Of a stretch of 64,000 nt of DNA, positions 11,004 to 52,426 are shown piece after piece. Source of the stretch: an uncultured Gammaproteobacteria bacterium (lineage in GTDB: Bacteria; Patescibacteriota; Microgenomatia; Levybacterales; GWA1-39-11); NCBI GenBank assembly GCA_964425075.1, contig CAYRKM010000001.1, positions 180,031 through 244,030 on the forward strand, given 5' to 3'. A model generated the notes under the pieces. It was not told where the DNA came from. It made no database searches and saw only the letters and a program-made list of their open reading frames with translations. Made by a program: the position numbers and the translations under genes. Each line of letters begins with the position of its first letter. Positions within the stretch are counted from its first letter, which is position 1.

Positions 11004-11254
11004 TTCACCCTCCTTTATTTTGCGATAATATTTTATTTTAAAGTACAGTAATCTTTTGCTTTCGCAAAAGTCGCTCTCATTAAATCCGTTTGCACGAACG
11101 AAAGGCTTTCACCCTCCTTTATAAGAACTAAACTTAATTTTCAAACTACAAACGTTCAGCACGCTCAAAATTGGAATACAACGAAAAACTAGACCAAACA
11201 TCGTGCACTAATTAATATTTTTAAGTATTATTTAGCATGATTTTCAAAAAATCT

Positions 11255-14722
<3,468 letters not shown>

Positions 14723-15097
14723 GAAATAGCACAGATTTTTAAAAATCATGTGCGATGTTCAATATAAAAATTATAAAATTGCGCTTTCCATGTCCTTCAT
14801 GGAAATGCGCGGCCTAGTTAAATGCTCCAGTCCACTGATGTTGACTGAAGCTGTTGTATCCCAATTTTCAACGTGCTGTACCCTTAAACAGTTTGTTAAA
14901 GGATTATCTCGCCTCATGCATTTAAAGAAGGCCAGCTGTAGCGCTGCGCCTTTTTTAAAGACACGAAGTCTATTAGTTATTAGTTACTAGTAATTAGGAA
15001 TAGTTTTCAAAAACTGACAACTAGTCCTAACAACTACTCCTGAATTGGTGGACCCGGAGATGCGCTGACGCAAGTCCGAATCTCTACCTAATTCCAG

Positions 15098-26123: not shown

Positions 26124-26828
26124 TTATCTTTTTGTTTTCTTTTTTAATTCCAAAACAAACCCCCCCCTTTTAATCCATCTATTTTCTCCCCCCAAGGGAT
26201 GATTGAACGGATATTGAGTTAATCTACTTTGTTTAAATCCATGTTGCCTAGCTAACTCAACTATTGAATTTGGATCAGTTTGAAAATAAATAGAATAATC
26301 ATGCCCAGTACTACATTCTTCTACAATCCTTTCCCAGTCATCATTAGTCTCAAAAAACTCCCGATAAGGGAGCTTTCCTGGCGCATCCTGGCGCCAAACC
26401 CTCATATTTGTGCTTTCTGAAGAAATAAGCATTGAACCCTTTGGCGCAAGGACTCTTTGAGCTTCTAAAAACATTTCGTCTCGTGAAATAGGATCCATAA
26501 AAACTAATGCATCCTTAAGTAAAATTCCGTCAAATGTTCCATCAGCATAGGGCAATACCTCAGCACATCCGAGCACTCTTAAACCTTCAAAGTATGATCC
26601 TGCAAGCATTGAAGGAGATACGTCTTGCGCAACTACTTCAAAGCCCTGTCTAGAAATTGCTTTTGCCTCAATACCCTGACCACTCGCTAAGTCAAGCACA
26701 CAATTCCCAGGCAAACTTTGAAGCCACGGAGATAAATAAGCACTAGTAAAAAGTGGCTGGGCAATTTCCTCTTTTCTATTACCTACTATATTAATTCCTG
26801 TTTGTAATGACTCTAGCCTCGTTGGCAT
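26124..26828 (-). CDS. class I SAM-dependent methyltransferase
   Basis: VLDLASGQGIEA...VVAQDVSPSML is motif I (GxGxG-like) with an acidic motif II (ILLKDALV). Confidence 0.6.
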   Translation of the reverse strand: MPTRLESLQTGINIVGNRKEEIAQPLFTSAYLSPWLQSLPGNCVLDLASGQGIEAKAISRQGFEVVAQDVSPSMLAGSYFEGLRVLGCAEVLPYADGTFDGILLKDALVFMDPISRDEMFLEAQRVLAPKGSMLISSESTNMRVWRQDAPGKLPYREFFETNDDWERIVEECSTGHDYSIYFQTDPNSIVELARQHGFKQSRLTQYPFNHPLGGENRWIKRGGFVLELKKKTKR

Positions 26829-26873: not shown

Positions 26874-27788
26874 TTACACTTGTTGATTTGCCTTATTTTG
26901 TTCAAGTAAACTTCCTACTGCTTCAGCAAGAATTCTTATTTCCCGCCTAACTGATTCTGGACTATCACTACCATGAACTATATTGTTTGGAACTCCCGTT
27001 GCATGCCTTGCTCTTATTGAATTGGGGTTATTTTCTCTTGCCTTATTTGGCATTGTATCTCCCATTTTGTCTCTCCACCAAACAACCGCACTTTCATTTC
27101 TTACCTTAAGATGACCATTAACCATAAAGTACATTCTTCTATCTTTTAGCTCTTCTCCCTCTTCTTCTGTTAGTTGTGAAAGATGTTTGACAACTGGTTT
27201 TCCAGCTTGTCTGAATACTACCGTGTCCTCATCTAGTTGTACCGTGTCGCCGTCAATTGTTAACAGGCCATTGGGCAAAATAGTGCTTCCGTCATCAAAA
27301 ATATGCCCTTCACCAAGATCAGCTAACTCATTTGCATCTTTTTTATAAATTAACACTGCAGTCAAAGAATCAGAAGTAGTGAATTCCACTACTTCTTGAT
27401 GAACAGCTGGTCTTTCTTCTAAATTTTGGTAAAACTTTCCTGCATCCTCTTTCCTAAATTTAATAGGTAACGCAAAAACAGCATTTTCTCCTATTTCAGC
27501 TAGAACTTCTTGGGCAGCAGCATCATCGTCATTTGACAATCCTTCCCCTTCATTGGCATGTGGTTTTATCATTGCAAATGTTAATTTACCCTGACAAATA
27601 AGCTCATTAGTTTGGGGGTGAGTTAAAATAGTACGGATTCCTTCAAGTTTTTCTATTTCAAGTTCGGGGATAGTAAGACCTTCAAGATACACACCATCTA
27701 CTGTTTCCTGAGCTCTTCTTCGAGAAGAAAAGCTCGCCGGAATTTCAGCGTTTTCTAGATTGTATGGTCGTGTCTCTATTGTTGGCAT
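26874..27788 (-). CDS. ndk: nucleoside-diphosphate kinase with a ~90-aa insertion and an N-terminal extension
   Basis: KLTFAMIKPHAN (cf. ERTFSIIKPNAV), FYQNLEERPAV (cf. FYAEHDGKPFF) and NNPNS...NIVHGSDSPESVRREI (cf. ATNPA...NGTHGSDSVESAAREI, carrying the catalytic phospho-His). About 90 extra residues sit between the Kpn-loop region and the NxxHGSDS motif. Confidence 0.6.
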   Translation of the reverse strand: MPTIETRPYNLENAEIPASFSSRRRAQETVDGVYLEGLTIPELEIEKLEGIRTILTHPQTNELICQGKLTFAMIKPHANEGEGLSNDDDAAAQEVLAEIGENAVFALPIKFRKEDAGKFYQNLEERPAVHQEVVEFTTSDSLTAVLIYKKDANELADLGEGHIFDDGSTILPNGLLTIDGDTVQLDEDTVVFRQAGKPVVKHLSQLTEEEGEELKDRRMYFMVNGHLKVRNESAVVWWRDKMGDTMPNKARENNPNSIRARHATGVPNNIVHGSDSPESVRREIRILAEAVGSLLEQNKANQQV

Positions 27789-27998
27789 ATTGATTTCTAT
27801 CTTGTGGATGAGATTCCTCTTCCATTTTGTTAAGCATTACTATGAATTCATTGATTTTCTTTACTTCCTTAACAATTTTCTGTTTTTTGGAATCCATATT
27901 TTGCAGCTAAATTATACTTTCAAAGAAGATAAAAGTCAACGGATAAGAGTGAATTATGGGATAATTTGATATAGTTCTTTATACTTCGGAATTATTTT

Positions 27999-28496
27999 CT
28001 ATGGGGCTAAAACAAAAAATGAGTAAGAATAATTCCCGTCCCTACACTTTTTTTCTGAAATTATAGTTTTAAATTTGGAATAATCCGGAAAAAAAGCATC
28101 AGCATCGGGAAATTCTTTATCAACAACTGTTAGATACAGTTTGTCAGCATACGGAAGTGCAAGAGCGTAAATTTGAGCTCCACCTATAATAAATATCTCG
28201 CTTTGTTCAAGCTTTCGAGCAATTTCTAATGCTTCCTCAATAAAAATTGCTTTCAGAACTCCTTCTGGCACTTTATAGTCAACGCTTCGAGAAACTACAA
28301 TATTAACTCTATTTGGAAGCGGACGACCTATCGACTCATAAGTCTTTCTTCCCATGATAACAGTGTGCCCGCGTGTAGTATCTCTAAAATGCTTCATATC
28401 TTCGGGAACATTCCATAACAATGAGTTTCCTTTTCCAAGTTCTCTATTCTTCCCAATTGCCGCAATGAGTGACACTTTCATAAAATTAGAATTCAT
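27999..28496 (-). CDS. folA: dihydrofolate reductase
   Basis: KVSLIAAIGKNRELGKGNSLLWNVPEDMKHFRDTTRGHTVIMGRKTYESIG matches the DHFR N-terminus (MISLIAAL...LPW.LP.DL..FK..T....vIMGRKT.ESIG). The start overlaps the upstream stop as ATGA; the internal Met at 28481 is an alternative start. Confidence 0.85.
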   Translation of the reverse strand: MNSNFMKVSLIAAIGKNRELGKGNSLLWNVPEDMKHFRDTTRGHTVIMGRKTYESIGRPLPNRVNIVVSRSVDYKVPEGVLKAIFIEEALEIARKLEQSEIFIIGGAQIYALALPYADKLYLTVVDKEFPDADAFFPDYSKFKTIISEKKCRDGNYSYSFFVLAP

Positions 28497-28855
28497 TTTG
28501 AAAATTTAATTTTAAGCTTTTGAATTAAGTCATCAGCATCCACATACTCTATAACTTCCTTAGATATATTTTTTAAAGAGTGGGAAAGATGAGAGCCTTT
28601 TTTATATACAGCAATTATTTCCATCCCAAAGATATTGGCCCAACCCAACTCTATCCCTTGACCGGTTGACTGATAAGTACCCTCAGCCAATACTAAATCG
28701 CATTGCTTAGATTGAAACAAAGATTTCGAATCATATGCTTCCTCTGAATCTTTATGCGGAAAAATAAAATCACAATCCAAACCAGAATTTTCTAACAGCT
28801 GATAAAGCTCACTTTTAAAATCAAAATTCCGGGAATGAGAAACATATATTTTCAT
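28493..28855 (-). CDS. hypothetical protein, nucleoside 2-deoxyribosyltransferase-like Rossmann fold (tentative)
   Basis: MKIYVSHS...CDLVLAEGTYQSTGQGIELGWANIFGMEIIAVY resembles the YtoQ / NDT-like G.E.G.A pattern. Its position inside the thymidylate cluster is suggestive. Confidence 0.3.
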   Translation of the reverse strand: MKIYVSHSRNFDFKSELYQLLENSGLDCDFIFPHKDSEEAYDSKSLFQSKQCDLVLAEGTYQSTGQGIELGWANIFGMEIIAVYKKGSHLSHSLKNISKEVIEYVDADDLIQKLKIKFSK

Positions 28856-29274
28856 TTATTTAAAATTGCTAATGCTTTTTCTACCATATCTTCAATGTTT
28901 GGTAATAATTCTTTGTCTTTAAGTGTCTCTATTGGTAGCCAAATCGGAACTGTCTCATCTGTTCCTCTCAATTCTCCGTGAAATTTATCAGTTGCAAAAA
29001 CAGTATGGGAAACATACAGTGTTTCCCCGTTTTTTCTTCGTAAATCCGCATCGTATTTATGTGGCAACTCCATCAAGTCATTTTCATCAACAACAAGACC
29101 AGTTTCCTCTTCCACTTCTCTTATAGCCGCTTGCCGCACTGTTTCTCCTTCATCAATCCTTCCTCCGGGAGTACCAAAACTTCCAGTCAAATGACCTGCT
29201 TCTTCACCATGTTCTACTAATAAAACTTTATCATCATAAACGATAACAACACCTACAGTGGGGATTCTTTCCAT
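28852..29274 (-). CDS. NUDIX hydrolase
   Basis: Nudix box GGRIDEGETVRQAAIREVEEETGL. Confidence 0.85.
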   Translation of the reverse strand: MERIPTVGVVIVYDDKVLLVEHGEEAGHLTGSFGTPGGRIDEGETVRQAAIREVEEETGLVVDENDLMELPHKYDADLRRKNGETLYVSHTVFATDKFHGELRGTDETVPIWLPIETLKDKELLPNIEDMVEKALAILNK

Positions 29275-29304
29275 AATACTTACTACGTTCTACCTGCTAC
29301 CTAT

Positions 29305-30273
29305 TTATTTCGCCATTTTGCCGGTTTTTTTATCATACAGTCCTCCGGCAACCGTCAACTCCGCTTTTAGCATTGGGTATGGGTCGTAATCCACGAGCTC
29401 AACATATTCTGGTCTGAAATCATCAATGCTTTTGAACTTTTTGGTAAATTTAATTTTTGGAAAAGGACGAGGTTTTCTTTTAAGTTGTTCTTTCACCTGA
29501 GCAATATGATTCTCGTAAATATGAACATCTCCAAAAGTATGAATAAATTCCCAAGCCTCAAGCCCTGCAATATGAGCTAAAATTTGAGTCAAAAGCGCAT
29601 ATGAGGCGATATTAAATGGCACTCCCAAGAAAACATCCGCACTTCGCTGGTAAAGCTGAAGGGATAATTTGTCTCCACGACGACTTACTTGATACATATT
29701 ATGGCAAATGGGATACCTTGACGCATCCTTATTCGTTGCCATAGTATAAAGATATTCAGGATTCCAGGAGTTAACTATCAAATTTTTTGCATCAGGATCA
29801 TCCTTCATTTCCTGCATTACCCATTTCAACTGGTCAATTGTTCTTCCTTTTGTTCTAGTTGGCCAGGCTCTCCACTGCTCCCCATAAATTCTTGGTAAAT
29901 TTCCCCATTTCTTTGCAAATTTAGCATCATTTTTTATCGCATCGGAAAATTCTTCCTTCGTCATTTTGCTCTTTGGATTTTTGCCTTGATAAATTTTGTA
30001 AGGATAATCAGTCCATATTCCAACATTGTTATCCACCAAATATTTAATGTTGGTTTGACCGGACATGAACCAATAAAGCTCATGCAAAACCCCTTTCCAA
30101 TAAACTTTTTTAGTAGTTAGAAGTGGAAATCCTTTTGAAAGATCGTATCGAGTTTGACGTCCAAACAGAGAATAAAGAACAATATCTGTTCCGCGGTCAA
30201 CTTTTCTCTCCCCTTTTTTAAGAATTTCGCTGACTAAATCGAGGTATTGGTATTCTTGATGCTTTGCTGCCAT
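29305..30273 (-). CDS. thyA: thymidylate synthase (ThyA, long form)
   Basis: RYPICHNMYQVSRRGDKLSLQLYQRSADVFLGVPFNIASYALL matches the ThyA catalytic-Cys PCH segment and QLYQRS.DVFLG.PFNIASYALL, with Asn retained in PFN (dUMP specificity). Confidence 0.9.
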   Translation of the reverse strand: MAAKHQEYQYLDLVSEILKKGERKVDRGTDIVLYSLFGRQTRYDLSKGFPLLTTKKVYWKGVLHELYWFMSGQTNIKYLVDNNVGIWTDYPYKIYQGKNPKSKMTKEEFSDAIKNDAKFAKKWGNLPRIYGEQWRAWPTRTKGRTIDQLKWVMQEMKDDPDAKNLIVNSWNPEYLYTMATNKDASRYPICHNMYQVSRRGDKLSLQLYQRSADVFLGVPFNIASYALLTQILAHIAGLEAWEFIHTFGDVHIYENHIAQVKEQLKRKPRPFPKIKFTKKFKSIDDFRPEYVELVDYDPYPMLKAELTVAGGLYDKKTGKMAK

Positions 30274-30315
30274 AGAAGATAATTCAATATAAATCTGTAA
30301 GAGCTTGTTGTCAAA

Positions 30316-30855
30316 TCAAACCTGTTTCTCTTTCTTCTTCACGGTTACTCTTCCACCTTGCCATTGCCCACGATACATGCTTCCTTTACCAATTACCTCA
30401 TGAAATTGAATGTGTGCAAACCGTGCGCCCATTTCAATTGTCACACTTGATGTTCCCGCATTATATAGTCCAAAAATTAATCCTCCACAATATCCAGGAT
30501 GCACACTCCCAGTTCGAAGCACCAATCCACTTCTGTATGTTGTTGAGCGCGGTGTAATTGAAGCCGTTAAATTATCTGGCATATTTACATCCTCCATAGT
30601 CTTTACAAGATAAAAGTCACCAGGTTTTATAACAATCTTATTCTTCTTTCCTTTTTCATATTTTTTCACCAATACACTATCGGGAGTCTTCCTCTCTTCC
30701 TCACCTAGAAAGGCTGTTCCTTTTATTTTATAAACTTCTCCAAGCCTCAGATCAAACCCTGCACCTTCAGGATTTGTGAGCTCTCTCTCTGAAAGATTTG
30801 TAACTAGATTTATTTTTTTTACAAGATCCAATAATTTTTGGGGTCCTAAAACCAT
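30316..30855 (-). CDS. dcd: dCTP deaminase / dUTPase-superfamily protein
   Basis: GAGFDLRLGEVY...GLVLRTGSVHPGYCGGLIFGLYNAG are the dUTPase/dCTP-deaminase beta-barrel motifs. Confidence 0.65.
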   Translation of the reverse strand: MVLGPQKLLDLVKKINLVTNLSERELTNPEGAGFDLRLGEVYKIKGTAFLGEEERKTPDSVLVKKYEKGKKNKIVIKPGDFYLVKTMEDVNMPDNLTASITPRSTTYRSGLVLRTGSVHPGYCGGLIFGLYNAGTSSVTIEMGARFAHIQFHEVIGKGSMYRGQWQGGRVTVKKKEKQV

Positions 30856-30863
30856 GCTTTAAT

Positions 30864-31547
30864 TTACGATTCTCTTTCTATAATGTCAATAATATCTTTT
30901 GTAACTTTCTCCTCCGATTGATTGCCGTCAATGACTATAAACTCTTTGGGAAATTCCTTAATTTCCATCTCATACCCGCGTGCGATCTTTTTCAACTTCT
31001 CTTCTTTTTCATAAATTTCCTTCTTTTTGCTCATACGAGATAACCTTTCAACAGCCTTCTTTGCGCTTATTTTAAGGTAAAAAGTTATATCAGGAGTTAA
31101 AAATTGATAGTAGGCTGAAAACAAACCGTTTGCCACAGCAATAGACCAGGCTTTTTTAAAACTATAATTATCTCCAAGATCGAGAATCCCATAAGGAATT
31201 GTTGACCAATTGCTTCTGTGTGTTAAAACAATACTCCCCTTCTTAAGCGCAGGCTCTACTATTTCTGTATGATTTATTGCTCTATCTGCCGAATAAATAC
31301 TTTGAAAAGCCCGACCCGGAATAGATAATTTAGAAGACAGGGCGCCCCTTATTATTTCTTGAATAACACCTGACGATTGAGGTTCTGAGGTAACAATAAC
31401 GTTTTGTCCTTTTTTCTCTAAATAACCTTTTATCGCTTCTACTTGTGTACTTTTTCCGCTTCCATCAATTCCTTCAAAGGCAAAATATTTTCCCTTATGC
31501 TTATTTCTTAATAAATCAGCTTTCAGTGAAAATTGATAATGCATCAA
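30864..31547 (-). CDS. tmk: thymidylate kinase (copy 1)
   Basis: P-loop FEGIDGSGKSTQ, the DRx motif (YSADRAINH) and a lid region. Confidence 0.8.
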   Translation of the reverse strand: MMHYQFSLKADLLRNKHKGKYFAFEGIDGSGKSTQVEAIKGYLEKKGQNVIVTSEPQSSGVIQEIIRGALSSKLSIPGRAFQSIYSADRAINHTEIVEPALKKGSIVLTHRSNWSTIPYGILDLGDNYSFKKAWSIAVANGLFSAYYQFLTPDITFYLKISAKKAVERLSRMSKKKEIYEKEEKLKKIARGYEMEIKEFPKEFIVIDGNQSEEKVTKDIIDIIERES

Positions 31548-31550
31548 AAA

Positions 31551-32255
31551 TTATTTATTTACTAAGGTTAATATTTCTTCAGTGACTTCATTAATTGGCC
31601 GCTCACCATGTATATTTACCATAGCTTTTGGATATTTCTTATACACCCAATCATAAATTTCTTTTACTTTTTCAAGCTTTCCCTCAGATTCGTAATATTC
31701 AAGCGGCCTACCCTCTCCTTTCAATCTCTTGAAGGCTGTTTGCACACTTGTATTAAGATAAAATGTCGCGTCAGGAGCTGTGAATTGGTGGTACATAGAA
31801 AGAATTGAAAGAGAAGTTAGAAGTCTTTCGTTTTCTTTAGAAATATCTTTACTGTCCCTATCAAGCATTCCATATGTAATTCCAGACCAAAATGTCCTAT
31901 CAGAAATTACAACCTTATTATCTTTCAATGCGGGAATTATTACTTCTTCTTGATGAATTGCTCTATCTGCCGTAAAAAGGTATTGAAGAGCAATGGGTGG
32001 CACTTTCACTTCTTTTTTTAGGACTTTATGAATAATTTCTCCTACTACTCCTTCTCTTCTAGGCTCTTGTGTAACCAAAACCCTTCTTCCCTTCTTTCTA
32101 TAAGCATCTGCTAAAGCTTGCACTTGTGTAGTTTTACCACTTCCATCAATGCCTTCAAGGGCAATATATATACCTTTGTAAGGATTTTTCAAAAGTTCTA
32201 TATCAAATTCTATGTGGTATTTCATTGCAAAAAGCGGCATCAGCATATCATACAA
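31551..32255 (-). CDS. tmk: thymidylate kinase (copy 2, tandem paralog)
   Basis: P-loop LEGIDGSGKTTQ and DRx (FTADRAIHQ). It sits 3 nt upstream of copy 1. Confidence 0.8.
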   Translation of the reverse strand: MYDMLMPLFAMKYHIEFDIELLKNPYKGIYIALEGIDGSGKTTQVQALADAYRKKGRRVLVTQEPRREGVVGEIIHKVLKKEVKVPPIALQYLFTADRAIHQEEVIIPALKDNKVVISDRTFWSGITYGMLDRDSKDISKENERLLTSLSILSMYHQFTAPDATFYLNTSVQTAFKRLKGEGRPLEYYESEGKLEKVKEIYDWVYKKYPKAMVNIHGERPINEVTEEILTLVNK

Positions 32256-32284: not shown

Positions 32285-32572
32285 ATGTATAATAAATACA
32301 TGAAGCAAATCTCAGATATTTTAAAAGGATTTAATCCAACTGAGGATAAATATATTTCACGCGAATTTCAAAGCTATGGCATATATCTTACAGAGACTTT
32401 AAATGACTACAAGCATAAAGCGCTTTATATAAAACTTGCCAAAACTGTTCACCGCTCAATTCTTGAAAAAGCCCTTTCATCTGTAAAAGACGCAAAAGTT
32501 GAACGGCCAGGTGCTCTCTTTATGTGGAAATTGAAACAGCTTAAAGACGAAAAGAAAACACCAAAGACATGA
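32285..32572 (+). CDS. hypothetical protein
   Basis: ORF only. The stop overlaps the next start as ATGA. No motif recognised. Confidence 0.35.
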   Translation: MYNKYMKQISDILKGFNPTEDKYISREFQSYGIYLTETLNDYKHKALYIKLAKTVHRSILEKALSSVKDAKVERPGALFMWKLKQLKDEKKTPKT

Positions 32573-48191: not shown

Positions 48192-49133
48192 TTATAATAG
48201 TTTCATCTGCCCTTTCCCGTCTTTTTTAAACTTCCCATCTTTCCCAAAAACCTCATCCACCCTTTTGGGCAATGTGTGAAATTCATTTTTCTCAAGGGAA
48301 TGTTTGAATTCTGAAATATCTATATTTGATATATCTGAGTCTGACAACTCAAATACAAAAGGCACATCATCAAGTATTTTTGCAAGCTGAAGAGATACCA
48401 TGCAACTATCATGTCCGTCTATAAGCTTTTGGGCTAAATTCTTATTTTTAGCCGCAATTTTATCTAAATTTTTATATATGTTATTTATTGTTTCATATTC
48501 ATTTATCAAATTGGCTGCGGTTTTGGGTCCAATTCCAGGCACTCCTGGGTAATTATCAGACGCATCCCCCATAAGGGCCTTAAGGTCTACTATCTGGACA
48601 GGATTAATACCGTATTTTTCCCGCACTTTTACCGTATCCATTATGCTAACTTCAGAAATTCCCTTTATGGGCATTAAAACCTTTGTGTCTTTATCCACCA
48701 ACTGCAACATGTCGCGGTCCCCAGTTACGATATAGGTAAAAATTCCATTTTTATTTGCAATTTTTGAAAGAGTTCCTATCACATCATCCGCTTCGTATCC
48801 GTCAACAGCGTAAGTCGGAATATGTGCGTCAAGAAGAATTTGAATAATTCGCTTGTATTGATCGGATAATTCACTTTCCATTTTGGGACGCTGGGCTTGA
48901 TAACCAACATATAACTGCTGACGAAATGTGGGTTTGGGTCTGTCAAAGGCTATTGCAACCCGAGTTGGCTCTAACTGATGCATAACCTTAAGTAACATTG
49001 AGAAAAAACCATAAACTGCCCCTGTAGGGACTCCTTTTGAGGTCTTGAAGAATGGCATGGCGTGATATGCACGATGAACTATAGCGCTACCATCAACGAG
49101 GAGGAATATATCCTTAGAAATGTCATCTTTCAT
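48192..49133 (-). CDS. 5'-3' exonuclease / flap endonuclease (PolI N-terminal-domain-like, ExoIX type)
   Basis: LLVDGSAIVHRAYHA, GYEADDVIGT, VTGDRDMLQL and an H3TH region (LMGDASDNYPGVPGIGPKTA). Confidence 0.8.
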   Translation of the reverse strand: MKDDISKDIFLLVDGSAIVHRAYHAMPFFKTSKGVPTGAVYGFFSMLLKVMHQLEPTRVAIAFDRPKPTFRQQLYVGYQAQRPKMESELSDQYKRIIQILLDAHIPTYAVDGYEADDVIGTLSKIANKNGIFTYIVTGDRDMLQLVDKDTKVLMPIKGISEVSIMDTVKVREKYGINPVQIVDLKALMGDASDNYPGVPGIGPKTAANLINEYETINNIYKNLDKIAAKNKNLAQKLIDGHDSCMVSLQLAKILDDVPFVFELSDSDISNIDISEFKHSLEKNEFHTLPKRVDEVFGKDGKFKKDGKGQMKLL

Positions 49134-49149
49134 GAATTGTATTGTATCA

Positions 49150-49187
49150 GAAAAAGCATTGAGGGGGCCCCGTTTCGGGGCCCCCTC
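49150..49187 (-). terminator. rho-independent terminator (12-bp GC stem plus T-tract) downstream of the thioredoxin-like gene
   Basis: Plus strand 49161-49187 reads GAGGGGGCCCCG-TTT-CGGGGCCCCCTC, a perfect 12-bp stem. On the minus strand it is followed by AATGCTTTTT. It sits between the thioredoxin-like stop (49281) and the FEN start (49133). Confidence 0.6.
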
Positions 49188-49280
49188 AAGTTACCTGAGC
49201 ATAGCTCAAGAACCGCACAGCATAATGCACGACCTTGATACCCGCGGGGATGCGGATAGAACTTGCTCAGAGGCTGAAAA

Positions 49281-49619
49281 TCAGGACGGGTCCGTGGCCA
49301 GGATGGTATCGAACCGCTTCCGCAGGTCGAACTTCGGCCGGAAGCCGACGATCTGCGCGGCGAGCGTGCCCTGCTTGAAAACCAGGAGCATCGGGATCGA
49401 CCGGATCCCAAACCGACTTACGATCCCCGGGTTATCGTCCGTGTTGATCCTGAGGAACTTCATCCGTCCCTCGTACTCCACTGCGAGGTCCTCAAGGATC
49501 GGACTCAAGTTGCGATACGGACCGCACCAGGGAGCCCAGAACACCACCGAGACCGGGATTTCACTCCGGATGACGTCTGCGTCGAACATTGTATCATTTG
49601 TGTCCGGCTGATTTGCCAT
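49281..49619 (-). CDS. thioredoxin-like protein with a CGPY (monothiol) active site, GC-rich
   Basis: VVFWAPWCGPYRNLSPIL...MKFLRINTDDNPGIVSRFGIRSIPMLLVF is a thioredoxin fold. The second active-site Cys is Tyr (codon TAT). AGGAAGG Shine-Dalgarno upstream. GC is far above the window background. Confidence 0.6.
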   Translation of the reverse strand: MANQPDTNDTMFDADVIRSEIPVSVVFWAPWCGPYRNLSPILEDLAVEYEGRMKFLRINTDDNPGIVSRFGIRSIPMLLVFKQGTLAAQIVGFRPKFDLRKRFDTILATDPS

Positions 49620-49678
49620 GCTGCGCTTTCCTTCCTGAAAAGCTCTCCCCTGTACGGGAAGAACTACGAATTGATGAG

Positions 49679-50056
49679 CTACTCAGACACCGTCAGCTTG
49701 TATCCGAGCTGTATATCAACTGGTGTGCCCCCTGCTTTCCAAGAAGCCATCGGCGAAACAGTCGCCGGCTGTCCGTTGACGGTGAAACTGATCGCCTCAC
49801 CATGCTCTGGTTTACAAGGCGAGTCAGCAGGTATCTGCATAACCCACTCACCTGAGGCGTTAGCCTCCGAAGTCGCACACAATTTTCCGCCAATTAAGGC
49901 GTCCACTGTCTGGCCTAACGAAAGACCCTTGCCATATAGCACCATAGGAAGCACCTGATTTTCAATCGAACCCGCCGTGTCGAGCACGAGCGATAGCACC
50001 AGGGCGATAGCGGCAGCGACGAGGCCAAACCTCGTCATCGCTTTACTAAGGATCAT
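49679..50056 (-). CDS. small secreted protein, GC-rich island; shares its start and signal peptide with 50799-51770
   Basis: MILSKAMTRFGLVAAAIALVLSLVLDTAGS signal peptide with a GAGGAG Shine-Dalgarno 8 nt upstream. Two Cys in the mature part. Confidence 0.5.
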   Translation of the reverse strand: MILSKAMTRFGLVAAAIALVLSLVLDTAGSIENQVLPMVLYGKGLSLGQTVDALIGGKLCATSEANASGEWVMQIPADSPCKPEHGEAISFTVNGQPATVSPMASWKAGGTPVDIQLGYKLTVSE

Positions 50057-50798
50057 CTAGATCTCCTCTCAGCCGCAAAGTCCTTCTTCCTTTGACTACG
50101 GCATCTTGAAGAACAAGAAATTATTCTCCCAAAAGCCGCAACCAAAAAAAATTTTAATTTTCAACCAATTTTTTAATGTACTAAAAAAAGGCCTTTAAAA
50201 AAGTGTATACAATTAGCACAAAGGGCCAAATTTTCTTATGGAAATTTTACTACGGGGTTATCTTGCTTGCAATATAGGTTGATTTTTTAAGTCTGTGGGA
50301 CCCCCGCTGGCTGCGGGGGTCCCACTAATGGGTTCCGCGATGGAACCCAAGGCAAACTAAGCTATATTCGAGAGCACGTCCTTGCGGCGGGGACGGACGG
50401 TCTCAAACTAGCTCAGTTAATGGCTGAATCTCTAGTCCGCACGTTGGAATCGAAATTCCACCGTCGAGACCCCGACTGGAGTTTGTACTCCAAACGTCGG
50501 GAGTGGGGCGAGCAACGCCCGGAGCACTCCCTCCAGCCGAGGTCCCGCCCACCACGTGGGTGGGGCGGGTGGCGACCCCTATGTCGCCCGGCGAGAAGTC
50601 AGGCGACGCTTACGCCTGCCAAGAGCTTGCGTATCACGCAGGCCTTCCTTTCCTATAGCCAAACGCGTGTTGATCCGGGTCCTGCCCGGAGGCGCTCGGG
50701 CAGGACCAGTGGTCCCATCAGAGCGTCTTGCGTTGTTGGGAGGCCCGCCCGAAGGCGGGCCCCCCACTTCCACGTCGGTGATCCCGACGCGCTACGGA

Positions 50799-51770
50799 CT
50801 AGTCCTCGCGGCGTCCGTAGAGTTGTCGACCCGCGACCGCAGCGCCAGCCACAGCCGCAAAGCCGAGAAGCAGCCAGAGGCCACCGTTGCCACCATCCGA
50901 ACCGAGGAGACCAGCGTTACCGGACTTCGGCTCATTGGTGTTTCCAGCCCGGATCGCGACCGAGCTGTTGGCCTCAAAACCGTCGGACGCGCTGAACGTC
51001 GTCGGGTCCAGGTTGGACGAGGAGGGACTACTGACCGAGCTGATGCTCGACCTCTGCCTCTCCATATATGCCGCCGGGTTGTACCCAGCCGCTTTGCTCG
51101 TCGTCCAGTTGAGGTTCGTTGCCACGATCACGCCGGCCGGGGTGCCGAGGATCGTGTTGTTCGCGACGATCGCCGAGGGATGAAGCACACCCACGACGAA
51201 AGCCGAAGCGGGGCAGATCATGACGCACTTGCCGCTGGTTCGGGGATTGGCCATCGCGAACCCGTAGTGGGGCCCGAAGTAGCTGGAGCCACCGATCCAG
51301 AAAACGACCTCCACGTCGGTCCCGTTGACCATGCGAAGCTGGTCGAGCCGGGGTGCGGGACTGGCCCTCAGGCCGGTACCCATGTTGAAGTGGACCGGAT
51401 TCACCGTGCCGGCATCCATCACGCGCTCGTTCGTGCTCGCGAAGAACTTGACACCGAACCCATCGTCGGCCGCGTCGAAGGCCATCGGTTGGCTCTTCGG
51501 GCCGATCGCAGCAGTCGAAACGACCGAGGCGAAAGCCTGATGCTCGAGCTGCGGCGTTGTGATGCCAATGCTCGAAGCAGGACCTCCCTTCTCAGCAACC
51601 AGCCCAGTGTTGTCCGTCGTGACGTGGCCGACCGTGAGGCCCTTGCCAGTCGTCATCACCAACTGCTCCTTGGCCGAAGCCGAACCCGCGGTAGCGAGTC
51701 CGAGCGTCAGCACCAGAGCAATGGCAGCAGCCATGAGCCCGAGACGGGTCATCGCCTTTGACAGGATCAC
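50799..51770 (-). CDS. secreted protein with a C-terminal hydrophobic anchor, GC-rich island
   Basis: A likely GTG start at 51770 (GAGGAGGCAGGAG then GTGATCCTG) gives MILSKAMTRLGLMAAAIALVLTLGLATAGSASA, a near-identical cassette to 49679-50056 at both DNA and protein level. The C-terminus GGLWLLLGFAAVAGAAVAGRQLYGRRED is a hydrophobic stretch with a basic tail (sorting-signal-like). The track ORF extends to 51800. Confidence 0.5.
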   Translation of the reverse strand: MILSKAMTRLGLMAAAIALVLTLGLATAGSASAKEQLVMTTGKGLTVGHVTTDNTGLVAEKGGPASSIGITTPQLEHQAFASVVSTAAIGPKSQPMAFDAADDGFGVKFFASTNERVMDAGTVNPVHFNMGTGLRASPAPRLDQLRMVNGTDVEVVFWIGGSSYFGPHYGFAMANPRTSGKCVMICPASAFVVGVLHPSAIVANNTILGTPAGVIVATNLNWTTSKAAGYNPAAYMERQRSSISSVSSPSSSNLDPTTFSASDGFEANSSVAIRAGNTNEPKSGNAGLLGSDGGNGGLWLLLGFAAVAGAAVAGRQLYGRRED

Positions 51771-52426
51771 TCCTGCCTCCTCTCTGAAAGAGAACATCAC
51801 AGCGAAGCGTGTGCTAATCTATAAGCATCTCCTTTCTACGCACCTCAGCGCTGGACCGACAAGTGCCGATCTACTCAGCGCGACGGGGCGGGCTTTCCCA
51901 CGGAGGACTCCGTGAGTGAACCATCTCCGATCCTTTCTGTTAGGCTCTTTCGAACCTCTGATTGATTGCCCTCCTCTGCCAGGGCCTCCTTGTACTGCTC
52001 GAGCGTAGCTCCAAGGAGTCTTTGCAAGAGTTAAGCACTAATTTAGTGGCCATGGCCCTACAGACTGCAAAACGTTGTACGTGTTCGAGCGACCCGAAGG
52101 TCCACGACGCACAACGTTTCCACAAGTAGGAGGAGACGTGTGTCAATCTGTCTGACCATGGCCCTTCGAGAAACAAACTGACTTATTCCCCCAAAAGCCA
52201 CGGCCAAACATAAATAACCCACGACCTTACGGTCGGGGTTTTCTTGAACATTATAAAAAAATTCTAGATTTTCAGCCAATTTTCAATGTACTTAGAACCT
52301 GGTCATATTATTCTGCATGCAATACGCAGTAATTACGCCAAGTTAACTATGATTTGGATTATATTCTCACACTATATTATTTGCAATAATATTTAGTTTT
52401 TAAAAATTGAGGGAGACTGACTATTC

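What the first reader, a model, noticed from the sequence alone, without database searches (positions are those of the whole stretch)
26874..32255. Thymidylate and dNTP-metabolism supercluster with two thymidylate kinase paralogs and an NDK carrying a 90-aa insertion
Ten consecutive minus-strand genes are: NDK with an insertion, folA, an NDT-like Rossmann protein, Nudix, thyA, a dcd-like gene, tmk copy 1 and tmk copy 2. Many are translationally coupled (ATGA overlaps at folA/28493 and at 28852). Co-localising the full dCTP to dUMP to dTMP to dTDP(dTTP) route with a sanitising Nudix is unusual in cellular genomes and is reminiscent of phage nucleotide-metabolism modules. The second Tmk (P-loop GKTTQ versus GKSTQ) could have altered specificity, for example for dUMP, dCMP or a modified dNMP. 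The NDK keeps its catalytic NIVHGSDS His but carries a large insertion plus an N-terminal extension, which could be a regulatory or oligomerisation change.
Basis: partly seen in the sequence, partly recalled or inferred. Interest (0 to 1): 0.55.

Follow-up and report, generated by a model that had tools for sequence, protein, structure and literature searches.

The report
Levyibacteria thymidylate operon, paired Tmk paralogs
This is the normal dTTP-synthesis operon of a tiny-genome (CPR, Levyibacteriota) bacterium rather than a phage-like module, but it holds several uncharacterised enzyme variants: a second thymidylate kinase with a changed active-site motif, a dCTP-deaminase look-alike without catalytic residues, and an NDK with an extra domain.

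Summary
The genes are real: eight (not ten) minus-strand genes at 26874-32255, in the order tmk-tmk-dcd/dut-like-thyA-nudix-NDT-like-folA, then a 210-nt gap and ndk. Both ATGA overlaps are confirmed. The phage-like reading fails. The core order dcd-tmk-D179-thyA-(nudix/NDT-like)-folA recurs in all 15 Levyibacteriota species representatives examined, and the closest relative (L100) has the same seven-gene operon. There is no phage DNA similarity or GC shift over the cluster.

Three corrections:
- The 'dcd-like' gene (D179) lacks the deaminase Glu (Gly) and the dUTPase-type Asp (His). The true Dcd seen in relatives is absent from the window, so the dCTP-to-dUMP step is not shown.
- The NDT-like protein is closest to dNMP N-glycosidases (DNPH1, BcmB, MilB).
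- The two Tmks are old paralogs (39% identity). Tmk1 belongs to a large 'HR' subfamily in which His replaces the Asp of the DRX motif, with four further subfamily-specific changes in the N-terminal half. It had a canonical Tmk next to it in 11 of 12 loci.

The NDK keeps all catalytic residues and carries a conserved 80-aa beta-rich insertion plus a 67-aa N-terminal extension. ThyA has a lineage-specific C-terminal extension. The cluster is ordinary for its lineage, and the variants are uncharacterised.

The parts
31551..32255 (-). tmk2: canonical 'DR-type' thymidylate kinase (type II P-loop GIDGSGKTT, DRT motif at residue 119). First gene of the operon. The true start is probably ATG at 32225.
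   Evidence: PF02223 3.5e-39 and TIGR00041 135.6 bits above cutoff 83. Best PDB hit is T. maritima Tmk 3hjn at 81 bits. It groups with the single Tmk of most Levyibacteriota loci. The homologs' start at MKYHIEFD is shown.
30864..31547 (-). tmk1: 'HR-type' Tmk paralog. His110 replaces the Asp of the DRX motif. Other subfamily markers are Ser54 (Arg/Lys/His/Gln in DR types), Tyr85 (Phe), Asn92 (His), Ser33 (Thr) and Glu212 (Val/Ile). It lies 3 nt after tmk2.
   Evidence: It shares 39% identity with Tmk2. 110 of the 120 best database homologs carry HR. Signature positions come from 119 HR versus 34 DR sequences. Tandem placement with a DR/ER-type Tmk is shown.
30316..30855 (-). D179: Dcd/dUTPase-superfamily protein (179 aa) with Gly129 at the dCTP-deaminase catalytic Glu position and His119 at the motif-III Asp position. 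Biochemical activity is unknown. It is not a canonical Dcd.
   Evidence: PF22769 4.3e-26, but TIGR02274 scores 85.6, below its cutoff of 92.8. PDB alignments place Gly against the Glu of 4xjc and the Met of 9ln0. Conserved residues are listed.
29305..30273 (-). thyA: L. casei-type thymidylate synthase. It has a 7-aa insert before the catalytic Cys (PICH, Cys190) and a 14-aa C-terminal extension (AGGLYDKKTGKMAK, residues 309-322) beyond the canonical terminal Val.
   Evidence: NF002496 358 bits above cutoff 325. 290 bits to L. casei TS, with the [23 protein letters not shown] motif intact. The extension is conserved in Levyibacteriota relatives.
28852..29274 (-). MutT/MTH1-like Nudix NTP pyrophosphohydrolase. 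It is a variable accessory gene of the operon.
   Evidence: PF00293 2e-21. Best PDB hits are MTH1 at 40 bits. It is present between thyA and folA in L099, L100, L102, L103, L183 and L187 only.
28493..28855 (-). 120-aa NDT-superfamily protein, closest to nucleoside-5'-monophosphate N-glycosidases (DNPH1/Rcl, BcmB, MilB). Key residues are Tyr4, His34, Ser63 and Glu69 (GIELGW). It overlaps both neighbouring genes by ATGA.
   Evidence: AF2 model pLDDT 95.5. Profile versus PDB: DNPH1 E=5e-6, BcmB 1.6e-4, true NDTs 0.5. Foldseek top hits are BcmB, DNPH1 and MilB. DNPH1 residue roles are from PMC10603095.
27999..28496 (-). folA: dihydrofolate reductase, the last gene of the tight operon.
   Evidence: PF00186 1.3e-50. 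It follows thyA in every related locus long enough to show it.
27789..27998 (-). 210-nt intergenic gap with a promoter-like site (TTGACT-17-TATAAT, 27939-27911) upstream of ndk.
   Evidence: This is a consensus match only, not proof of function.
26874..27788 (-). ndk: nucleoside diphosphate kinase, 304 aa. It has a 67-aa N-terminal extension (nt 27588-27788) and an 80-aa beta-rich insertion (residues 153-232, nt 27093-27332) between strand beta3 and the following helix. Catalytic Lys75, Tyr120, Arg239, Thr245, Arg259, Asn269, His272, Ser274 and Glu283 are invariant.
   Evidence: Alignment with 8 full-length and 3 insertion-less homologs. AF2 pLDDT 81, insertion 71-88. The core superposes on NDK structures at TMt 0.8-0.84. 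The insertion has 52% mean pairwise identity and no indels among 9 sequences.

Best explanation
The interval is the vertically inherited thymidylate (dTTP) synthesis operon of a Candidatus Levyibacteriota (CPR/Patescibacteria) bacterium, in an expanded local version.

Seven tightly packed genes (tmk-DR, tmk-HR, D179, thyA, nudix, DNPH1-like, folA) have gaps of -4 to 42 nt and are probably co-transcribed. ndk follows behind its own putative promoter.

Inferred flow: dUMP is methylated by ThyA using methylene-THF. FolA recycles the dihydrofolate. A Tmk makes dTDP and Ndk makes dTTP. The Nudix and the DNPH1-like N-glycosidase are optional pool-cleaning or salvage accessories, since they come and go between relatives.

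The canonical DR-type Tmk2 is the housekeeping dTMP kinase. The HR-type Tmk1 is an old, conserved accessory paralog. His replaces the DRX Asp, and further subfamily-specific changes lie beside the acceptor-site motifs. It either phosphorylates a different (d)NMP or works together with the canonical Tmk.

D179 is a nucleotide-binding dUTPase-fold protein that cannot be a standard dCTP deaminase. How it supplies or senses dUMP/dUTP is unknown.

Shown: gene identities, motif states, lineage conservation. Inferred: co-transcription, substrate flow, roles of Tmk1, D179, the Nudix and the N-glycosidase.
For: -
- Lineage assignment and conservation: the Tmk2 query returned 15 species-representative loci, mostly titled Levyibacteriota/Patescibacteria (four carry a 'Gammaproteobacteria' label). 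tmk is adjacent to D179 in 15/15, and thyA and folA follow whenever the contig continues.
- L100 (70-90% aa identity) has the same seven genes in the same order with the same flanks (orf95/VTT/MGMT/DUF2207 on one side, cyclase/PHP on the other).
- GC is uniform at 0.35-0.37 across the region. Phage similarity is limited to the thyA core. PADLOC gave only weak, generic hits (best 50 bits to the Nudix).
- thyA is always coupled to folA, and glyA (SHMT) lies nearby in L103, L184 and L185. This argues that ThyA makes dihydrofolate, so it is a true synthase.
- The Tmk HR subfamily is large (110/120 top hits). It keeps the DRX Arg, the ADR Arg and the YG Tyr but changes six signature positions. It lies beside a DR/ER-type Tmk in 11 of 12 loci (window, L087, L100, L102, L103, L183-L188; alone only in L093).
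Against: - No activity was tested for any of these proteins.
- The operon as seen in the window lacks a demonstrable dUMP source. The true Dcd found upstream of tmk in 14/15 representatives is missing here and in L100 and L102. D179 lacks both catalytic residues.
- ThyA carries a C-terminal extension at a position where the free carboxylate matters in studied enzymes (my knowledge of L. casei and E. coli TS), so normal activity is assumed rather than shown.
- L093 has only an HR-type Tmk in its operon. HR may therefore be a competent dTMP kinase and simply redundant.
- Only 64 kb of an 835-kb contig could be inspected.
Confidence: 0.75

Rival explanations
1. Tmk1 (HR-type) has a distinct phosphoryl acceptor (for example dUMP, dCMP, another dNMP or a modified dUMP). 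The pair therefore gives a minimal genome two kinase specificities from one fold.
For: Four of the six subfamily-specific positions lie beside motifs that line the acceptor site: the residue before the EP motif (Arg/Lys/His/Gln to Ser), the Phe-to-Tyr position just upstream of the ADR Arg, His-to-Asn, and the DRX Asp-to-His. The ATP-side P-loop and basic LID residues are retained. The subfamily is large and conserved and nearly always accompanies a canonical Tmk.
Against: The residues I take to contact thymine and deoxyribose (Arg of ADR, Tyr of YG) are unchanged. L093 carries HR as the only operon Tmk. No characterised kinase with an HR motif was found for comparison. The role of the Arg before EP rests on my recollection of S. 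aureus TMK structures.
Confidence: 0.35
2. Tmk1 and Tmk2 form a hetero-oligomer in which one subunit is regulatory or weakly active. The precedent is the tandem Tmk-like pair Saci_2019/Saci_2020, which forms the polyphosphate kinase PPK3 in Sulfolobus.
For: The tandem arrangement is conserved with 3-15 nt spacing across relatives whose HR proteins are only 50-60% identical to the window's Tmk1. The loss of the acidic DRX residue could lower catalysis. PPK3 shows that tandem Tmk paralogs can form an alpha2-beta2 complex (PMC12995831).
Against: In PPK3 the dTMP-site residues are lost and the regulatory subunit loses the DRX Arg. Here both proteins keep them. Both window proteins score higher against bona fide Tmks (3hjn, 82 and 81 bits) than against the cPPK3 homolog 2plr (57 and 50 bits). 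The neighbourhood is thyA/folA, not ppx/CHAD/pst. Gene order is DR-HR in some loci and HR-DR in others. No multimer model could be run.
Confidence: 0.2
3. One reading: a phage-derived nucleotide-metabolism or base-modification module that encodes the complete dCTP to dUTP/dUMP to dTMP to dTTP route, with D179 acting as the dCTP deaminase.
For: All eight protein families also occur in phages (PHROG hits). DNPH1-like, Nudix and extra kinases are typical of phage modification modules. ThyA has an unusual C-terminus.
Against: The cluster is conserved in synteny across the phylum. There is no GC shift and no phage DNA similarity beyond the thyA core. Viral fold matches to the 120-aa protein are no closer than cellular ones. 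D179 has Gly at the deaminase Glu position in all orthologs. ThyA keeps the catalytic Cys and the dUMP-specifying Asn, and is always paired with folA.
Confidence: 0.05

Closest known systems
Bacterial and phage thyA-folA (td-frd) thymidylate operons, with tmk/dcd/dut elsewhere (established knowledge of E. coli, B. subtilis and T4)
   Same: ThyA is coupled to DHFR so that dihydrofolate is recycled. The enzymes are the same, and ThyA is 290 bits to L. casei TS.
   Different: Here tmk (1-3 copies), a Dcd, a Dcd-like protein, and sometimes a Nudix, a DNPH1-like protein and glyA are all packed into one operon. ThyA has a conserved C-terminal extension.
PPK3 of Sulfolobus acidocaldarius (Saci_2019/Saci_2020), tandem Tmk-like paralogs forming a heteromeric polyphosphate kinase (PMC12995831)
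   Same: Two adjacent Tmk-fold paralogs are conserved as a pair, and one has a changed DRX motif.
   Different: In PPK3 the dTMP-binding residues are lost, the regulatory subunit loses the DRX Arg, and the neighbours are ppx/CHAD/pst. In the window the Arg and the dTMP-site residues are kept, only the Asp is replaced, the neighbours are thyA/folA, and both proteins are closer to true Tmks.
DNPH1/Rcl (2'-deoxynucleoside 5'-phosphate N-hydrolase) and the CMP N-glycosidases BcmB and MilB
   Same: The fold matches (Foldseek prob 1.0, TMq 0.62-0.79). The motif AE(V)xxPS(T/L)GxG(I/Y)ELGxA with the nucleophile Glu is shared, and the Tyr and His near the N-terminus are present.
   Different: The protein is about 30 aa shorter and has no shielding loop. 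An equivalent of the general acid Asp80 was not identified, and Pro replaces Glu55. Identity is only 20-24%.
Dcd-like archaeal-type dUTPases and dCTP deaminases (PDB 9ln0/8y1w, 4xjc, E. coli Dcd 1xs1)
   Same: The trimeric dUTPase-superfamily sequence motifs PRS(T), PGY.G, G.R...Q/H and the C-terminal Y.GQWQGG are shared. The best PDB hit is 9ln0 at 62 bits.
   Different: The Glu of deaminases is Gly. The Asp of 'DPGW/F' is His here and varies across the family (Ala, Ser, Asn, His, Pro, with Asp in about a fifth).
Canonical hexameric/tetrameric NDK (for example A. aeolicus 3ztq, E. coli 2hur)
   Same: The NDK core is complete and all catalytic residues are present. TMt is 0.8-0.84.
   Different: An 80-aa beta-rich domain is inserted after beta3 and there is a 67-aa N-terminal extension. 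The top 50 PDB matches (all NDKs or NDK-domain proteins) align only with the core. Only 8 database clusters share the full architecture.

Membership tests
Thymidylate kinase (PF02223 / TIGR00041), applied to Tmk2 | P-loop GxxGxGK(S/T), DRX motif, basic LID residues (type II), and score above the curated cutoff | tested here: met
   GIDGSGKTT, DRT and LID KRLKGEGR are present. TIGR00041 scores 135.6, above the cutoff of 83. The type II definition is from PMC3169407.
Thymidylate kinase, applied to Tmk1 (HR-type) | Asp of the DRX motif | tested here: not met
   His110 aligns with the Asp of T. maritima 'DRY'. His is 100% conserved in 119 HR-type sequences, against Asp in 33 of 34 DR-type sequences.
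Thymidylate kinase, applied to Tmk1 (HR-type) | P-loop, DRX Arg, LID basic residues, dTMP-site Arg (ADR) and Tyr (YG), and family score | tested here: met
   GIDGSGKST, R111, ADR at 87 and YG at 119 are present. TIGR00041 scores 118.7, above the cutoff of 83.
PPK3 (Tmk-derived polyphosphate kinase) | dTMP-binding residues not conserved, regulatory subunit lacking the DRX Arg, and a ppx/CHAD/pst neighbourhood | tested here: not met
   The Arg and the dTMP-site residues are conserved in both proteins. The neighbours are thyA/folA. 2plr scores 57 and 50 bits, against 82 and 81 for the true Tmk 3hjn. The criteria are from PMC12995831.
dCTP deaminase (Dcd, TIGR02274) | Catalytic Glu (E. coli E138) in the L-E-x-x-N motif, and score above the cutoff | tested here: not met
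   Gly129 occupies the position ('FGLYN') in the window and in nearly all orthologs (Ala in a few). It is never Glu among the 106 family representatives aligned. The score of 85.6 is below the cutoff of 92.8. The role of E138 is from my knowledge of Johansson et al. 2005.
Trimeric dUTPase | Motif III Asp that activates the attacking water | tested here: not met
   His119 occupies the position ('VHPGY'). It is variable in the family. Motif II, IV and V-like elements are present, so nucleotide binding is likely, but canonical catalysis is not supported.
DNPH1/MilB/BcmB nucleoside-5'-monophosphate N-glycosidases | NDT-like Rossmann fold with nucleophile Glu in GxELG, catalytic Tyr, and a phosphate-binding Ser before the Gly | tested here: met
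   The profile alignment of 'AEVsyPStGqGiELgWA' to DNPH1 'AEVTQPSLGVGYELGRA' is. Y4, E69, G67 and Q66 are invariant, and S60, T64 and G65 are nearly invariant.
DNPH1/MilB/BcmB nucleoside-5'-monophosphate N-glycosidases | General acid Asp (human D80) and second phosphate Ser from the partner subunit (S128) | tested here: inconclusive
   The N-terminal half was not aligned by HMMER. There is no invariant Asp in the corresponding stretch. S93 is nearly invariant and may correspond to S128, but this is by inspection only. Residue roles are from PMC10603095.
Nucleoside 2-deoxyribosyltransferase (PF05014) | Pfam gathering score | tested here: not met
   13.8 bits against a cutoff of 28.8, E=0.067. 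Solved NDTs score E=0.5-0.6 with the family profile.
Thymidylate synthase ThyA | Equivalog score, catalytic Cys, dUMP-specifying Asn, and folate-site motifs | tested here: met
   NF002496 scores 358, above the cutoff of 325. PICH, [23 protein letters not shown] and GDVHIYENH are conserved against L. casei TS.
Thymidylate synthase ThyA | Protein ends at the canonical C-terminal residue (free carboxylate closes the active site) | tested here: not met
   There are 14 extra residues after Val308. An extension of at least 3 aa (VGGF) is conserved in most Levyibacteriota ThyAs, while L105 and L108 end canonically at KAPVAV. The functional weight of this feature is from my knowledge of TS C-terminal deletion mutants.
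Nucleoside diphosphate kinase | Catalytic His in NxxHGSD plus Lys, Tyr, Arg, Thr, Arg, Asn, Ser and Glu, and the ferredoxin-like core | tested here: met
   The columns are invariant. The core superposes on NDKs at TMt 0.8-0.84.
Phage or mobile nucleotide-metabolism module | Phage or integration genes at the borders, compositional shift, patchy distribution within the host lineage, and phage-like sequence affinity | tested here: not met

The most novel reading that the evidence does not exclude
The Levyibacteriota thymidylate operon may encode a non-canonical pyrimidine deoxynucleotide pathway rather than a decorated standard one. Its components would be an HR-type Tmk with a remodelled acceptor site, a dUTPase-fold protein that has lost both known catalytic residues, a ThyA whose C-terminus is extended, and (in this genome) a DNPH1-like dNMP N-glycosidase. 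Together these could make, discriminate or remove a modified or alternative dUMP/dTMP species. Alternatively the Tmk pair could act as a heteromeric enzyme with a new activity, as the PPK3 pair does.
Probability: 0.1. Interest if true: 0.7.

Novelty: new variant of a known kind. Interest (0 to 1): 0.38.

Why it matters
CPR bacteria have tiny genomes and are thought to depend on scavenged nucleotides. A phylum-wide, tightly packed dTTP operon shows which steps they insist on keeping.

The practical value lies in three conserved but unstudied protein variants:
- A Tmk subfamily with His in place of the DRX Asp, which nearly always accompanies a normal Tmk.
- A large dUTPase/Dcd-like family lacking both catalytic residues, which databases label 'dCTP deaminase'.
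- A short bacterial relative of the human nucleotide sanitiser DNPH1.

Each is easy to test biochemically. Correcting the 'dCTP deaminase' label alone would change metabolic reconstructions for this phylum. As a gene cluster, however, it is ordinary for its lineage and not a sign of phage origin.

Tried and rejected
- Phage origin. blastn against 50,697 phage records found only about 200 bp of the thyA core at 67-71% identity. The BFVD fold search for the 120-aa protein gave only generic NDT/TIR matches at 21% identity or less. PADLOC gave only weak, generic hits. Rejected.
- NDK query against GTDB representative genomes. This returned almost only ordinary NDKs. Just one truncated contig (L001) and one Patescibacteria locus were related, so it was of little use for synteny.
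- Scan of genome contigs with the HR-type Tmk alignment.
- Pfam search on the NDK insertion and the N-terminal extension alone. The only hit was an insignificant one to DUF6799 (E=0.02).
- Literature searches for PDB codes 9LN0/8Y1W and for Tmk paralogs in CPR/Microgenomates found nothing relevant. The Dictyostelium Dcd paper notes CPR relatives of Dcd2 but gives no residue data usable here.
- PPK3 membership of the Tmk pair was considered and rejected (see the membership test).
- The Nudix as NudB (folate pathway) was considered. The best matches are MutT/MTH1 and are weak, so this is left open.

Full report
**Observation**

The interval 26874-32255 holds eight consecutive minus-strand ORFs at exactly the stated coordinates. 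Pfam and NCBIfam assign them as follows:
- NDK (C-terminal half only).
- DHFR.
- No family for the 120-aa ORF.
- Nudix.
- Thymidylate synthase (NF002496, 358 bits, cutoff 325).
- A DCD/dUTPase-superfamily protein (TIGR02274, 85.6 bits, below its cutoff of 92.8).
- Two thymidylate kinases (TIGR00041, 118.7 and 135.6 bits, cutoff 83).

Both ATGA start/stop overlaps are in the sequence. Gaps from tmk2 to folA run from -4 to 42 nt. A 210-nt gap with a good promoter-like hexamer pair separates folA from ndk. The unit is therefore a seven-gene operon plus ndk.

**Organism and context**

The window carries a 23S rRNA, a 5S rRNA and tRNAs. It comes from an 835-kb contig. Relatives of Tmk2 in species-representative genomes are mostly Candidatus Levyibacteriota or 'Patescibacteria group' MAGs. 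This is a cellular CPR genome.

**Is the cluster unusual for the lineage? No**

I ran tblastn of the window's proteins against the 15 representative loci.
- tmk is adjacent to the 179-aa Dcd-like gene (D179) in 15/15.
- A second, 190-aa Dcd gene lies upstream of tmk in 14/15.
- thyA and folA follow wherever the contig continues.
- A Nudix (L099) or the 120-aa gene (L098) is sometimes inserted between thyA and folA.

The closest relative found, L100 (70-90% aa identity), has tmk-tmk-D179-(DUF5680)-thyA-nudix-120aa-folA. Its flanks are the same as in the window: orf95/VTT/MGMT/DUF2207 on one side and cyclase/PHP on the other.

GC content is flat at 0.35-0.37 across the region. Phage records match only about 200 bp of the thyA core. 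PADLOC shows only weak, generic hits. The phage-like reading is not supported.

What is local to this genome is the adjacency of ndk. L100 lacks ndk and the methyltransferase at this spot. L083 has ndk directly beside orf95 with the whole operon absent. L001 has ndk followed by the methyltransferase. L081 has D179-thyA, then an inserted molybdenum-cofactor block, then folA-ndk.

**The two Tmks**

They share 39% identity without gaps, so this is not a recent duplication. Both are type II Tmks: the P-loop Asp is followed by Gly and the LID is basic (definition from PMC3169407). Both hit T. maritima Tmk best.

Tmk1 has His where every characterised Tmk has the Asp of the DRX motif ('THRS' against 'LDRY'). 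This is not an oddity of one gene. 110 of the 120 best database homologs carry HR.

A comparison of 119 HR-type and 34 DR-type sequences gives six clean signature positions (Tmk1 numbering):

| Position | HR-type | DR-type |
|---|---|---|
| 33 | Ser | Thr |
| 54 | Ser | Arg/Lys/His/Gln (the residue before the EP motif) |
| 85 | Tyr | Phe (just upstream of the ADR Arg) |
| 92 | Asn | His |
| 110 | His | Asp |
| 212 | Glu | Val/Ile |

The DRX Arg, the ADR Arg and the YG Tyr are unchanged. An NJ tree separates three groups: DRC/DRT-type (includes Tmk2), DRY-type, and HR-type (includes Tmk1).

In 12 loci with an HR-type gene, 11 also have a DR- or ER-type Tmk next to it. The order is DR-HR in the window, L100, L102, L103, L186, L187 and L188. 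It is HR-DR in L087, L184 and L185. L183 has three copies. L093 has HR alone.

The GKST/GKTT difference is a true subfamily marker but is not diagnostic by itself.

A published precedent exists for tandem Tmk-like paralogs with a new joint function: PPK3 in Sulfolobus (PMC12995831). Its defining features are loss of the dTMP-site residues, loss of the DRX Arg in the regulatory subunit, and a ppx neighbourhood. None is met here. Both window proteins also score lower against the cPPK3 homolog 2plr than against true Tmks.

**The 'dcd-like' gene**

Three independent PDB alignments and two family alignments place Gly129 at the position of the catalytic Glu of dCTP deaminases. They place His119 at the conserved Asp of the 'DPGW/F' motif, which is the motif III Asp of dUTPases. 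The first position is Gly or Ala in all Levyibacteriota orthologs. The second is His, Pro, Ala, Gln or, rarely, Asp.

An exhaustive HMMER search found 265 representative clusters at E<=1e-10. In the 106 full-length representatives aligned from the best 150, the Glu is never present and the Asp is present in about a fifth. Other nucleotide-binding elements are conserved: PRS/T-T, PGY.G, G.R, and the C-terminal Y.GQWQGG.

By contrast, the 190-aa gene upstream of tmk in relatives scores 154 bits against M. tuberculosis Dcd:Dut and 150 bits against E. coli Dcd, and keeps 'LELGN'. That true Dcd is absent from the whole 64-kb window and from L100 and L102.

What D179 does is unknown. I regard it as a deoxynucleotide-binding dUTPase-fold protein, and its catalytic activity, if it has one, is unknown.

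**The 120-aa protein**

Sixty-four homologs exist, almost all 118-125 aa, with Y4, P33, H34, E58, Q66, G67, E69, L70, W72 and A73 invariant. The AlphaFold model is confident (pLDDT 95.5).

A family profile hits DNPH1/Rcl at E=5e-6, BcmB at 1.6e-4, and true NDTs only at about 0.5. Foldseek ranks BcmB, DNPH1 and MilB first. The shared motif includes the nucleophile Glu (human E104) and the phosphate-binding Ser (S98). Tyr4 and His34 plausibly match Y24 and H56 (roles from PMC10603095). An equivalent of the general acid D80 was not found.

'NDT-like' is right at superfamily level. The better prediction is an N-glycosidase acting on (deoxy)nucleoside 5'-monophosphates.

**ThyA, FolA and Nudix**

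ThyA is a close relative of L. casei TS (290 bits) with the catalytic Cys and the dUMP-specifying Asn region intact. It is always paired with folA, and in three relatives with glyA nearby. This argues for a true dihydrofolate-producing synthase rather than a hydroxymethylase.

It does have a 7-aa insert before the catalytic Cys and a C-terminal extension. Both are conserved in most Levyibacteriota ThyAs, while L105 and L108 end canonically. The consequence is unknown.

The Nudix is a weak MutT/MTH1-type match.

**NDK**

Alignment with eight full-length and three shorter homologs defines an 80-aa insertion (residues 153-232) and a 67-aa N-terminal extension. All catalytic residues are invariant.

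In the model, residues 1-35 are disordered. The core superposes on solved NDKs (TMt 0.8-0.84). The insertion is a beta-rich subdomain with pLDDT 71-88. The insertion has no indels and 52% mean pairwise identity among nine sequences, against 65-75% in the core. It is therefore a constrained domain. No family match was found for it, and its role is unknown.

**Verdict**

This is a real cluster and a cellular, lineage-typical thymidylate operon. Its flag on the second Tmk and the NDK insertion does hold.

The uncharacterised variants (HR-type Tmk, D179 family, short DNPH1-like protein, extended ThyA, NDK insertion) give moderate interest. No tool result points to a new kind of system.

Noticed in passing
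window 29305-29346 (ThyA residues 309-322) and about 29704-29724 (insert before Cys190): ThyA carries a conserved C-terminal extension (AGGLYDKKTGKMAK; the minimal form in relatives is VGGF) past the canonical terminal Val. It also has a 7-aa insert before the catalytic Cys. Both are shared by most Levyibacteriota ThyAs but not by L105 or L108.
   Followed up: partly
L183 5320-7378; also L087, L184, L185: One relative has three tandem tmk genes (DR, HR, HR) in the same operon. Gene order of the DR and HR copies differs between clades, which suggests repeated rearrangement or gain.
   Followed up: partly
window 1-64000; L100, L102: The true 190-aa dCTP deaminase sits upstream of tmk in 14 of 15 representative loci. 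It is absent from the whole window and from the two closest relatives, where a divergent orf95 gene abuts tmk instead.
   Followed up: yes
window 32285-32572 (+): A 95-aa ORF with no family hit is conserved at 70-84% identity in L083, L100 and L102. It is always divergently adjacent to either tmk or ndk. It could be a small regulator, but this was not examined.
   Followed up: no
window 11253-14732 (-): The 23S rRNA spans 3480 nt against a 2925-nt model, so it has roughly 550 nt of insertion. A 187-aa ORF on the opposite strand inside it (12102-12665) has no Pfam hit. Such insertions are typical of CPR rRNA genes.
   Followed up: partly
window about 49100-52200: A 3-kb island has GC 0.53-0.66 in a 0.37-GC genome. 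It contains a thioredoxin-like gene with WCGPY instead of WCGPC (49281-49619, minus strand) and two secreted paralogs sharing a signal peptide (49679-50056 and 50799-51800, minus strand). No Rfam or Pfam hits were found for the three long ORFs tested (the 125-aa paralog and the thioredoxin-like ORF were not scanned). The only plasmid hit is a Deinococcus trxA. This looks like recent horizontal transfer from a high-GC organism or a misassembly.
   Followed up: partly
L081 1464-8529: In a relative with the same long NDK, a block of molybdenum-cofactor and sulfite-oxidase-like genes is inserted between thyA and folA. The operon therefore tolerates large insertions.
   Followed up: no
window 26124-26828 (-) and L001 902-1576: A class I SAM methyltransferase follows ndk both here and in L001. 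ndk and this gene seem to move together, independently of the thymidylate operon.
   Followed up: partly
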